Below are positions 19,500 to 19,617 of a stretch of DNA of 64,000 bases, piece after piece; position 1 is the stretch's first letter, and the number at the start of each line of letters is the position of its first letter. The position numbers and the translations under genes were made by a program. The stretch covers positions 96,001-160,000 of IMG/VR virus record IMGVR_UViG_3300046786_000293; one strand, 5' to 3'. The stretch is from a virus. Taxonomy: Duplodnaviria; Caudoviricetes. The notes beneath the pieces were generated by a model. The model saw nothing but the letters and a program-made list of their open reading frames with translations. It was not told where the DNA came from and ran no database searches.

Positions 19500-19617
19500 T
19501 GGCGCCGCCGGAGGGATTCGAACCCCCATCACTTCCTTGACATGGAATAAGAAATTGCTGAACGTACTCTTAACAGAGTCACCTTTTATAAGTGTCCTAC
19601 CATTAGACGACAGCGGC
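19500..19617 (-). ncRNA. tRNA/Y-like hybrid: CCA-ending tRNA (G73, GUC loop) with the family-1 motif inserted after the D arm
   Basis: Acceptor GCCGCUG/CGGCGGC, D arm, T arm GGGGG-UUCGAAU-CCCUC; insert ACUCU-GUUA-AGAGU-ACGUUCAGCAA. Confidence 0.7.

What the first reader, a model, noticed from the sequence alone, without database searches (positions are those of the whole stretch)
19500..19617. CCA-ending tRNA carrying the Ro-family motif as its exact circular permutation
This 118-nt RNA has normal acceptor, D and T arms, G73 and CCA. Between the D arm and a GUC anticodon-like hairpin (UUCC-AUGUCAA-GGAA) it carries ACUCU-GUUA-AGAGU-ACGUUCAGCAA. That is what results from joining the 3' end (..CUGUU) of a linear family-1 RNA to its 5' end (AGxxU..CAGCAA). 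G73 plus GUC are Asp identity elements. Inference: an aminoacylatable Y-like RNA, or evidence that linear family-1 RNAs are functional as circles, possibly made by the neighbouring Rnl1. The break point (D-arm/anticodon junction) is the same as in 23386-23508.
Basis: partly seen in the sequence, partly recalled or inferred. Interest (0 to 1): 0.9.

Follow-up and report, generated by a model that had tools for sequence, protein, structure and literature searches.

The report
tRNA-shaped phage RNA carrying Ro-handle
A freshwater jumbo phage, and cultured vibriophages and a cyanophage, encode a complete tRNA with an extra folded arm inside its anticodon stem; that arm is the "handle" shared by the small RNAs beside the phage's Ro60-like protein gene, so it is most likely a tRNA-shaped Y RNA, not an ordinary or broken tRNA.

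Summary
Window 19617..19500 (minus strand) is a 118-nt tRNA with acceptor, D and T arms, G73, an encoded CCA and a 7-nt GUC loop. A 44-nt insert carries a hairpin followed by NNN-CAGCAA.

The insert does not lie at the D-arm/anticodon junction. It lies inside the anticodon stem, after base pair 28:42, and this placement is backed by covariation.

I collected 42 distinct homologs: 99.4% of cells are paired, 15 of 28 pairs show compensatory change, and CAGCA is invariant. Unannotated copies also exist in Vibrio phage nt-1, Vibrio phage 1.081.O and Synechococcus phage BUCT-ZZ01.

The neighbouring DUF2828/DUF7788 protein has a Ro60 fold. Tandem RNAs with the same handle precede its gene even in homologs only 48-60% identical.

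"Exact circular permutation" is only partly right. The GUU tail is not conserved in the closing loop (GAAA, GACA, GUAA also occur), so nothing supports circles. The Asp identity reading is weak: anticodon and discriminator vary, two loops have 8 nt, and in the five phages checked a canonical tRNA carries the same anticodon.

Best reading: a topologically inverted YrlA-like Y RNA. The short linear handle RNAs also resemble Dictyostelium Class I RNAs. This scan noted the same design before on other DNA (e1-4043237, e1-5308151). I found no published description.

The parts
19500..19617 (-). Whole 118-nt RNA: a tRNA body with an internal handle arm and an encoded CCA (19502..19500); discriminator G at 19503
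   Evidence: Rfam RF00005 44 bits; own model R1 144 bits; 42 homologs
19611..19617 (-). Acceptor stem 5' strand (GCCGCUG), pairing with 19510..19504
   Evidence: 6 of 7 pairs show compensatory change across homologs
19594..19608 (-). D arm GUCU-AAUGGUA-GGAC with A14, G18, G19, A21
19591..19592 (-). First two nucleotides of the anticodon stem (27, 28). They pair across the insert with 19533..19532
   Evidence: Pair types CG/AU and UA/CG/GC/UG
19583..19590 (-). A-rich 5' linker (UAUAAAAG)
   Evidence: Unpaired and A-rich in all homologs
19564..19582 (-). Handle hairpin GUG(A)CUCU-GUUA-AGAGUAC: 7 bp, one bulge, closed by a tetraloop
   Evidence: ACUCU/AGAGU changes to AUCCU/AGGAU by two compensatory pairs
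19555..19563 (-). 3-nt spacer GUU plus the CAGCAA motif
   Evidence: CAGCA invariant in 42 of 42; same spacing as in the six linear handle RNAs
19547..19554 (-). U-rich 3' linker (UUUCUUAU)
   Evidence: Variable in sequence and length
19532..19546 (-). Rest of the anticodon arm: UCC-AUGUCAA-GGAAG (GUC loop)
   Evidence: A32, U33, A37, A38 conserved while 34-36 vary
19511..19527 (-). T arm GGGGG-UUCGAAU-CCCUC
   Evidence: 3 of 5 pairs compensatory
12894..14312 (-). Context: 472-aa Ro60-like protein (Pfam DUF2828 + DUF7788)
   Evidence: Pfam; AF2 model pLDDT 90.7; Foldseek top hits Ro60 2i91/1yvr/9l5y, E about 1e-9, whole length
14341..14778 (-). Context: three tandem linear handle RNAs (14778..14609, 14599..14404, 14396..14341) in the leader of the Ro60-like gene
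   Evidence: 14395..14343 hits Rfam Dicty_Class_I_RNA at 30 bits
23386..23504 (-). Context: linear handle RNA carrying a circularly permuted tRNA-like body with a UAU loop; the topological inverse of the target
   Evidence: Rfam YrlA 33.4 bits, E 7.6e-6
21545..21607 (-). Context: short linear handle RNA
25179..25235 (-). Context: short linear handle RNA
16562..17470 (-). Context: Rnl1-type RNA ligase, beside a P-loop kinase (17717-18169) and a PTP-like phosphatase (18671-19177)
   Evidence: Pfam RNA_lig_T4_1 E 6e-13, AAA_33, DSPc/Tc-R-P

Best explanation
The RNA is a tRNA-shaped Y RNA, wired the opposite way round from YrlA.

Shown: it folds as a canonical tRNA with a 7-bp acceptor stem, D and T arms with the elbow nucleotides, a 5-bp anticodon stem with a 7-nt loop, and an encoded CCA. 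A 42-48-nt arm leaves the 5' strand of the anticodon stem after pair 28:42. That arm is a 7-bp bulged hairpin followed by NNN-CAGCA(A). This is the same helix-plus-motif 'handle' that closes the termini of the phage's linear small RNAs.

Inferred: it sits in the tRNA array with normal spacing, so it is probably matured like a tRNA by RNase P and 3' trimming. The handle probably docks the phage's Ro60-like DUF2828 protein, as the conserved stem of a Y RNA docks Ro60. The tRNA body probably presents a tRNA surface, including a selected anticodon-like loop, to a tRNA-recognising factor such as a repair enzyme, a nuclease or a modification enzyme. The particle would then work in tRNA or RNA surveillance or counter-defence during infection. 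Which factor is engaged, and whether the CCA end is charged, is not known.
For: Fold and selection: Rfam tRNA 44 bits. 42 distinct homologs are 99.4% paired, with 15 of 28 pairs compensatory, including the split anticodon stem and two handle pairs.

The handle matches the linear family: 7-nt stem strand + 3 nt + CAGCAA in six linear RNAs of the window and dozens in relatives. Homologs L151 and L255 carry the family's own AGGAUAC stem. CAGCA is invariant in 42 of 42, whereas the anticodon is not.

Protein partner: the DUF2828/DUF7788 protein has a Ro60 fold. Tandem handle RNAs lie directly upstream of its gene in homologs of 60, 51, 53 and 48% identity.

Linkage of the closed form: in Synechococcus phage BUCT-ZZ01 two closed-handle tRNAs with different bodies but an identical handle follow the Ro-like gene within about 450 nt.

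Y-RNA kinship: linear siblings match the tRNA-like domain of YrlA and break the tRNA at the same place.

Decoding appears dispensable: in each of the five phages checked a canonical tRNA has the same anticodon. An 8-nt loop AUUCAUAA is identical in L255 and Vibrio phage nt-1, although the stems beneath it differ.

Literature: Bas63 gp130, a Ro60-like protein beside the tRNA genes, counters the Ppl defence, and the authors suspected that some of those tRNA genes are Y RNAs (10.1101/2024.10.10.617714).
Against: No binding or expression data exist. The metatranscriptome contigs were uninformative. The handle motif (CAGCAA) differs from the documented Ro60/Rsr-binding motif GNCGAA (PMC4201824), so protein binding rests on genomic association only. 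In the window the target lies 5.2 kb from the Ro-like gene. Removing the insert restores a perfect tRNA in every homolog, and A32, U33, A37, A38 are conserved with variation confined to 34-36. That pattern also fits real decoding tRNAs. gp130 alone sufficed against Ppl in T7, so the protein can act without the phage's RNAs.
Confidence: 0.6

Rival explanations
1. It is a working, aminoacylated decoding tRNA (Asp in the window) that simply tolerates or uses an extra arm, as class II tRNAs carry a long variable arm. This does not exclude Ro-like protein binding.
For: Canonical acceptor, D and T arms, 7-nt loop with U33 and A37, G73 and an encoded CCA. Loop positions 32, 33, 37 and 38 are conserved while 34-36 vary, as among real isoacceptors. 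Tandem paralogs have different anticodons in L278 and L309. GUC is the majority anticodon, in 26 of 42 counting two loops with an altered position 37.
Against: The anticodon changes on an almost unchanged body: L170 (GCC) differs from L300 (GUC) by one base. The discriminator is G or A regardless of anticodon. 8-nt loops are conserved across distant phages. The copy is redundant with a canonical tRNA in each of the five phages checked. Some copies have degenerate T loops yet keep the handle (L278, L309).
Confidence: 0.17
2. The 44 nt are a protein-spliced intron. A phage or host endonuclease excises the arm and the neighbouring Pnk/phosphatase/Rnl1 set reseals the tRNA, giving a mature 74-nt tRNA.
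For: Deleting the insert gives a perfect tRNA in all seven tested homologs. The window copy has a CUUAU direct repeat at both borders. Healing-and-sealing enzymes lie 0.3-3 kb away.
Against: No bulge-helix-bulge or other conserved pairing exists between the borders; the linkers are unpaired and variable. The CUUAU repeat is absent from L151, L264 and L255. No insert-free allele was found among the more than 100 loci hit by the 5'-half pattern. The same motif closes the ends of RNAs that are not introns. CAGCA invariance fits a binding site better than a discarded spacer.
Confidence: 0.1
3. The hairpin is the fossil or the functional image of a circle junction: linear handle RNAs are circularised (for example by Rnl1) and this gene encodes the opened-elsewhere form.
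For: In the window copy the loop GUUA reproduces the linear family's 3' GUU followed by its 5' A. An Rnl1 gene is nearby. Tandem linear units give ...CCU-GUU-spacer-AGG... junctions in DNA, so permutation by duplication is a plausible origin.
Against: GUU begins the loop in only 19 of 42 homologs; GAAA, GACA, GUAA and GUAU also occur. There is a conserved bulge that the linear stems lack. No back-splice reads could be obtained. A DNA-level tandem-duplication origin needs no RNA circles.
Confidence: 0.04
4. It is a decaying tRNA pseudogene disrupted by a chance insertion.
For: ARAGORN does not call it. The single-sequence fold is not more stable than shuffles (z = -0.81).
Against: The RNA is conserved from freshwater jumbo phages to Vibrio T4-like phages and a cyanophage. 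Covariation is seen in every helix and the motif in the insert is invariant.
Confidence: 0.02

Closest known systems
YrlA, the tRNA-like bacterial and phage Y RNA bound by Rsr/Ro60 (Rfam RF02553; Chen et al. 2014, PMC4201824)
   Same: A tRNA-like D/T/acceptor core joined, at the anticodon-stem position, to a protein-binding helix. It is encoded on the same strand as a Ro60-fold protein gene and lies in an RNA-repair neighbourhood. The window's linear sibling at 23504..23386 hits the YrlA model.
   Different: The topology is inverted: here the acceptor is open with an encoded CCA and the handle is closed, whereas YrlA has a closed acceptor and its termini in the Ro-binding stem. A full anticodon arm is kept. 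The handle is helix + NNN + CAGCAA, not GNCGAA. The protein belongs to the DUF2828/DUF7788 branch, which Pfam does not call TROVE. The target itself gives no RF02553 hit.
Class I RNAs of dictyostelid amoebae (Rfam RF01414; Kjellin et al. 2021, PMC7919456)
   Same: A short covarying helix followed immediately by an unpaired ...CAGCAA motif, with an A-rich stretch before the 3' strand. Four short linear handle RNAs of these phages match RF01414 end to end at 30-36.5 bits.
   Different: Class I RNAs are eukaryotic, about 60 nt, and their helix joins the termini (AAG...CUGU). They were reported as unique to Dictyostelia and have no tRNA part. In the target the helix is capped by a loop. All phage scores are below the gathering score of 41.5. 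Whether Dictyostelium has a DUF2828 protein was not established here.
Bas63 (Felixounavirus) gp130, a Ro60-like anti-Ppl protein (PhageMaP preprint, 10.1101/2024.10.10.617714)
   Same: A Ro60-fold phage protein encoded beside the tRNA genes. The authors suggested that some of those 'tRNA genes' are Y RNAs. Felixounaviruses hold homologs of the window's protein at about 40% identity.
   Different: No RNA partner was identified in that work. I did not align gp130 itself to the window protein.
Intron-bearing and permuted tRNA genes of archaea and red algae (BHB introns at non-canonical positions; Cyanidioschyzon permuted tRNAs). From my own knowledge, not checked in papers here
   Same: An insertion in the anticodon-stem region whose removal restores a canonical tRNA. 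Permuted and non-permuted wirings coexist in one genome.
   Different: No BHB motif, no known splicing endonuclease, and a bacterial-virus setting. The inserted sequence is a conserved motif shared with free-standing RNAs.

Membership tests
tRNA (RF00005) | Cloverleaf scoring above the Rfam gathering score | tested here: met
   44 bits against 29, model 1-71, with a 55-nt insertion in the anticodon arm
tRNA (RF00005) | Uninterrupted 5-bp anticodon stem with a 7-nt loop, U33 and purine 37 | tested here: not met
   The loop AUGUCAA is canonical, but the stem's 5' strand is split by 44 nt after position 28
tRNA (RF00005) | Anticodon and identity elements held constant among orthologs | tested here: not met
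   12 loop versions and G or A at 73 among 42 homologs
tRNA (RF00005) | Aminoacylation and use in decoding | not testable with these tools
   Needs acid-urea northern blots or charging assays
YrlA / Y RNA (RF02553) | tRNA-like D, T and acceptor modules with elbow nucleotides | tested here: met
   A14, G18, G19, A21, UUCGAAU and G53:C61 are present
YrlA / Y RNA (RF02553) | 5' and 3' termini pair to form the Ro-binding stem; acceptor closed by a loop | tested here: not met
   The termini are at the acceptor stem with CCA; the handle is closed by GUUA
YrlA / Y RNA (RF02553) | GNCGAAN0-1G Ro/Rsr-binding motif (PMC4201824) | tested here: not met
   No such motif in the handle; CAGCAA stands there instead
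YrlA / Y RNA (RF02553) | Encoded near, and on the same strand as, a Ro60-type protein gene | tested here: met
   Same strand, 5.2 kb from the Ro60-fold gene in the window; within about 450 nt in BUCT-ZZ01
YrlA / Y RNA (RF02553) | Match to the Rfam covariance model | tested here: not met
   No RF02553 hit on 19400-19720 at E up to 10. The linear sibling scores 33.4 against a gathering score of 69
YrlA / Y RNA (RF02553) | Physical binding to the Ro60-type protein | not testable with these tools
   Needs RIP, EMSA or a structure
Dictyostelid Class I RNA (RF01414) | Unpaired CAGCAA-containing motif directly 3' of the 5' strand of a short covarying helix | tested here: met
   AGAGUAC-GUU-CAGCAA; helix covaries; CAGCA in 42 of 42
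Dictyostelid Class I RNA (RF01414) | The helix joins the RNA's own 5' (AAG) and 3' (CUGU) ends; length about 60 nt | tested here: not met
   The helix is internal and loop-closed in a 118-nt tRNA. The feature is met by the window's linear members
Dictyostelid Class I RNA (RF01414) | Rfam gathering score | tested here: not met
   Linear relatives score 30-36.5 against 41.5. The target cannot be aligned because of its permuted order
Protein-spliced tRNA intron (BHB type) | Bulge-helix-bulge or other conserved pairing across the two splice borders | tested here: not met
   The borders are unpaired A- and U-rich linkers with no conserved complementarity
Protein-spliced tRNA intron (BHB type) | Spliced product in RNA | tested here: inconclusive
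   The only RNA libraries holding related sequence are contigs with partial matches

The most novel reading that the evidence does not exclude
The closed-handle tRNAs are anticodon-specific baits. Each presents the anticodon loop of a tRNA that host defence nucleases or modification enzymes target: GUC and GUU are queuosine-family anticodons, and UCU and (U)CAU also occur. Meanwhile the handle holds the Ro60-like protein on the same molecule. Attack on the bait would therefore be sensed, sequestered or coupled to the adjacent Pnk/phosphatase/Rnl1 repair set. This would be a ribonucleoprotein counter-defence against tRNA-directed immunity. It would also imply that the look-alike Class I RNAs of Dictyostelium are Y-type RNAs.
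Probability: 0.15. Interest if true: 0.85.

Novelty: new variant of a known kind. Interest (0 to 1): 0.66.

Why it matters
Y RNAs that mimic tRNA are known only with a closed acceptor stem. Here the same partnership appears built the other way round, on a complete tRNA with a CCA end and a selected anticodon-like loop.

The design is old and widespread. It occurs in freshwater jumbo phages, T4-like vibriophages and a cyanophage, in at least three body types.

The copies sit unannotated in cultured phages (nt-1, BUCT-ZZ01), so binding, charging and phenotype can be tested directly.

The finding gives a concrete RNA candidate for the Ro60-like phage protein family already linked to counter-defence (Bas63 gp130 against Ppl). 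It ties that family to the phage tRNA and RNA-repair islands. It also bears on the unexplained Class I RNAs of social amoebae, which share the handle signature.

Tried and rejected
- Megablast of the region against cultured phages found only a shared tRNA-Gln.
- The search for related loci with the neighbouring 340-aa protein found nothing.
- The pattern CAGCAA...CCATGTCAAGG gave mostly chance hits.
- The single-sequence fold is not more stable than shuffles (z = -0.81). It is uninformative; the comparative data decide.
- My first motif scan missed the target because of the bulge and spacer definition. A generic 'hairpin then CAGCA' occurs about 45 times in the genome, so the motif alone is not significant; conservation is what counts.
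- Sequence search of the protein against PDB found nothing. The Ro60 fold needed a model.
- Read laying on two metatranscriptome and two DNA runs gave only partial contig matches. It gave no ends, no splice and no circle joints. A second run search found one RNA run with 2 of 10 words.
- The AFDB cluster search and the Atlas search hid or lacked organism names, so I could not test whether Dictyostelium has a DUF2828 protein.
- The canonical phage tRNA-Asp (24531..24457) is not a close relative of the target, so a recent duplication plus insertion is rejected.
- The CUUAU border repeat was rejected as a target-site duplication because other homologs lack it.

Full report
**Setting.** The window is bases 96001-160000 of a 338.5-kb IMG/VR jumbo-phage record from fresh water. 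Its minus strand carries 39 ARAGORN tRNAs interleaved with short non-coding elements. It also carries an RNA-repair gene set: an Rnl1-type ligase, a P-loop kinase, a PTP-like phosphatase and an RF-1-domain protein.

**The object.** The minus strand of 19617..19500 reads as follows:
- GCCGCUG-UC-GUCU-AAUGGUA-GGAC-A-CU
- then the insert [UAUAAAAG-GUGACUCU-GUUA-AGAGUAC-GUU-CAGCAA-UUUCUUAU]
- then UCC-AUGUCAA-GGAAG-UGAU-GGGGG-UUCGAAU-CCCUC-CGGCGGC-G-CCA.

Rfam's tRNA model matches it end to end at 44 bits (gathering score 29), with a 55-nt gap in the anticodon arm. ARAGORN skips it. Once the 44 nt are removed, ARAGORN calls tRNA-Asp(gtc). The gene lies 6 nt downstream of tRNA-Arg(acg), which is the normal spacing for this array.

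**Homologs and structure.**
- Exact-pattern scans of viral and metagenome contigs, contigs encoding the neighbouring protein, and a covariance model (R1) gave 52 copies, 42 of them distinct.
- On the model-guided alignment, 99.4% of cells form standard pairs. 15 of 28 pairs show changes on both sides. No shuffle out of 500 reaches the observed values, and sliding the 3' partners drops pairing to about 45-55%.
- Every helix covaries, including the handle hairpin (ACUCU/AGAGU to AUCCU/AGGAU).
- Importantly, the two pairs formed by the nucleotides just before the insert with the 3' end of the anticodon stem also covary (CG/AU and UA/CG/GC/UG).
- The insert therefore sits inside the anticodon stem, after pair 28:42. 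It is not at the D-arm/anticodon junction.
- Inserts are 42-48 nt long and are always at this place.
- A pseudogene is excluded.

**Is the insert the family motif?**
- Six linear RNAs of the window have the form (UUUU)AGGAUNN-NNN-CAGCA(A/G)...NNAUCCU-GUU, with covarying NN. Relatives have dozens more.
- The target has the 3' strand, a loop, the 5' strand, three nucleotides and CAGCAA, with identical spacing. Homologs L151 and L255 even carry the family's own AGGAUAC. CAGCA is invariant in 42 of 42. The handle is therefore shared.
- 'Exact circular permutation' is too strong. The loop begins with GUU in only 19 of 42; GAAA, GACA, GUAA and GUAU also occur. All closed copies have a 1-nt bulge that the linear stems lack. 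The window copy has AGA/UCU where the linear RNAs have the constant AGG/CCU.
- The terminal nucleotides that are constant in the linear RNAs thus look like end-specific features. They are dispensable once the helix is capped.
- The claim that the break point equals that of 23504..23386 is right. That RNA ends after position 28 and starts before position 29 of a permuted tRNA-like body with a UAU loop.

**The protein.**
- The 472-aa product of 14312..12894 is Pfam DUF2828 + DUF7788. It has no sequence match in PDB.
- A confident AF2 model (pLDDT 90.7) matches Ro60 structures over its whole length. These include frog and human Ro60, Deinococcus Rsr and Thermus phage phiLo Ro60, with E about 1e-9 to 1e-6 and TM about 0.55-0.62. 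A vWA domain follows.
- The family is very large: 6184 clusters at 50% identity. It occurs in 710 cultured phage records, some annotated 'Ro-like RNA binding protein'.
- Three tandem handle RNAs fill the leader of the gene in the window and in close relatives.
- Tandem handle RNAs also precede the gene in homologs of only 60, 51 and 53% identity, and in cyanophage BUCT-ZZ01 at 48% identity.
- This linkage is of the same kind that defined bacterial Y RNAs (PMC4201824).
- In BUCT-ZZ01 two closed-handle tRNAs lie immediately downstream of the gene. They have different bodies but an identical handle.

**Relation to known RNA families.**
- The linear sibling at 23467..23400 matches the tRNA-like domain of Rfam YrlA (33.4 bits, E 7.6e-6, below gathering). 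Another such match occurs in a relative.
- The short linear members match Rfam Dicty_Class_I_RNA end to end in four phages, at 30-36.5 bits against a gathering score of 41.5.
- The shared features are those listed for Class I RNAs. They are a 6-bp covarying terminal helix, an adjacent ...CAGCAA motif, an A-rich stretch before the 3' strand, and a G start with a CUGU end (PMC7919456).
- The documented Rsr-binding motif GNCGAA is absent.

**Is it a decoding tRNA?**
- For: a canonical loop frame. A32, U33, A37 and A38 are conserved, with variation concentrated at 34-36. There is an encoded CCA. Tandem paralogs with different anticodons exist (L278, L309).
- Against:
  - The loop is AUGUCAA in 24 of 42 and one of 11 other versions otherwise: GUU, UCU, GCC, UAU, UAC, CAU and two 8-nt loops.
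  - G73 and A73 occur with the same anticodon.
  - GCC differs from GUC by one base on an otherwise identical RNA.
  - In each of the five phages checked a canonical tRNA has the same anticodon.
  - The 8-nt loop AUUCAUAA is identical in a freshwater jumbo phage (L255) and in Vibrio phage nt-1, while the stem below it has changed by compensation.
- The loop is therefore under selection, but not obviously for triplet decoding.

**Is it an intron or a circle junction?**
- Removing the insert restores a tRNA, and healing-and-sealing enzymes are near.
- However, the borders have no conserved pairing. The CUUAU repeat is peculiar to some copies. No insert-free allele was seen.
- The same motif closes free-standing RNAs.
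- Read data were uninformative.
- Nothing supports RNA circles. A DNA-level origin by tandem duplication of a permuted unit is enough to explain the wiring.

**Breadth.** Model R1 finds unannotated copies of 116-124 nt in Vibrio phage nt-1 (three copies), Vibrio phage 1.081.O and Synechococcus phage BUCT-ZZ01 (two copies). At least three body types recur:
- GUCGUCUAAUGGUAGGACA with GUC;
- GGUGUAGUGGNAGCAC with (U)CAU;
- AGCUCAGUGGUAGAGCA with GUU.

**Literature and earlier notes.**
- The PhageMaP preprint reports that Bas63 gp130, a Ro60-like protein next to the tRNA genes, counters the Ppl defence. It guesses that some of those tRNA genes are Y RNAs.
- I found no paper describing the handle or a tRNA that carries it.
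- Earlier follow-ups of this scan reached the same general reading on other genomes. Two of them described tRNAs with an internal handle (e1-4043237, e1-5308151).
- Those are unchecked AI notes. My conclusions rest on the calls cited above.

**Verdict.** This is a real, conserved RNA. It is best read as a topologically inverted, tRNA-complete Y-like RNA of the DUF2828 Ro60-like system. The fold, the conservation, the shared handle, the Ro60 fold of the protein and the genomic linkage are shown. Binding, maturation, charging and biological role are inferred or open.

Noticed in passing
window 14343-14395 (-); L249:5643-5696, L249:16327-16379, L246:9610-9662: Short linear handle RNAs match Rfam Dicty_Class_I_RNA end to end (30-36.5 bits; gathering score 41.5). 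They share the terminal helix, the CAGCAA motif, the A-rich 3' part and the CUGU end. That class was reported as unique to Dictyostelia.
   Followed up: partly
L386:3440-4000; L387:3440-4000; L389:1900-2075; L390:2630-2990: Distant DUF2828 Ro60-like genes (48-60% identity, in different phage types including a T4-like context and a cyanophage) are each preceded by 2-6 tandem handle RNAs. Some of these carry T-arm-like hairpins.
   Followed up: partly
L246:14912-15004 and L249:7492-7579: A second closed-handle tRNA-like family without an anticodon arm: acceptor, a D-side hairpin, the handle hairpin + CAGCAA, T arm, CCA/CCU. The two orthologs show compensatory changes.
   Followed up: no
L278:1812-2052; L309:7156-7399: Two closed-handle tRNAs lie in tandem with different anticodon loops (UAC + GUC; GUC + CAU). 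Some have degenerate T loops but an intact handle.
   Followed up: no
window 23287-23378 (-): A 92-nt tRNA-Ile(tat) with a long extra arm scores on the tRNA-Sec model (29.5 bits). It sits directly beside the permuted tRNA-like handle RNA that also has a UAU loop.
   Followed up: no
window 19309-19488 (-): A 59-aa ORF with a strong Shine-Dalgarno sequence starts 12 nt after the target's CCA. 59-aa ORFs recur in the same islands of relatives (L253, L256, L257, L258, L262). There is no Pfam match.
   Followed up: no
L003:7168-7240; L255:6406-6480; L264:8149-8225: In several relatives a short linear handle RNA follows the closed-handle tRNA within 0-3 nt of its CCA. In the window this neighbour is absent.
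   Followed up: no
window 15723-16142 (-), 11754-12719 (-): An RF-1-domain (ArfB-like) protein and a NAD-synthase/PP-loop ATPase protein flank the Ro60-like and repair genes. The same set recurs beside the gene in relatives.
   Followed up: no
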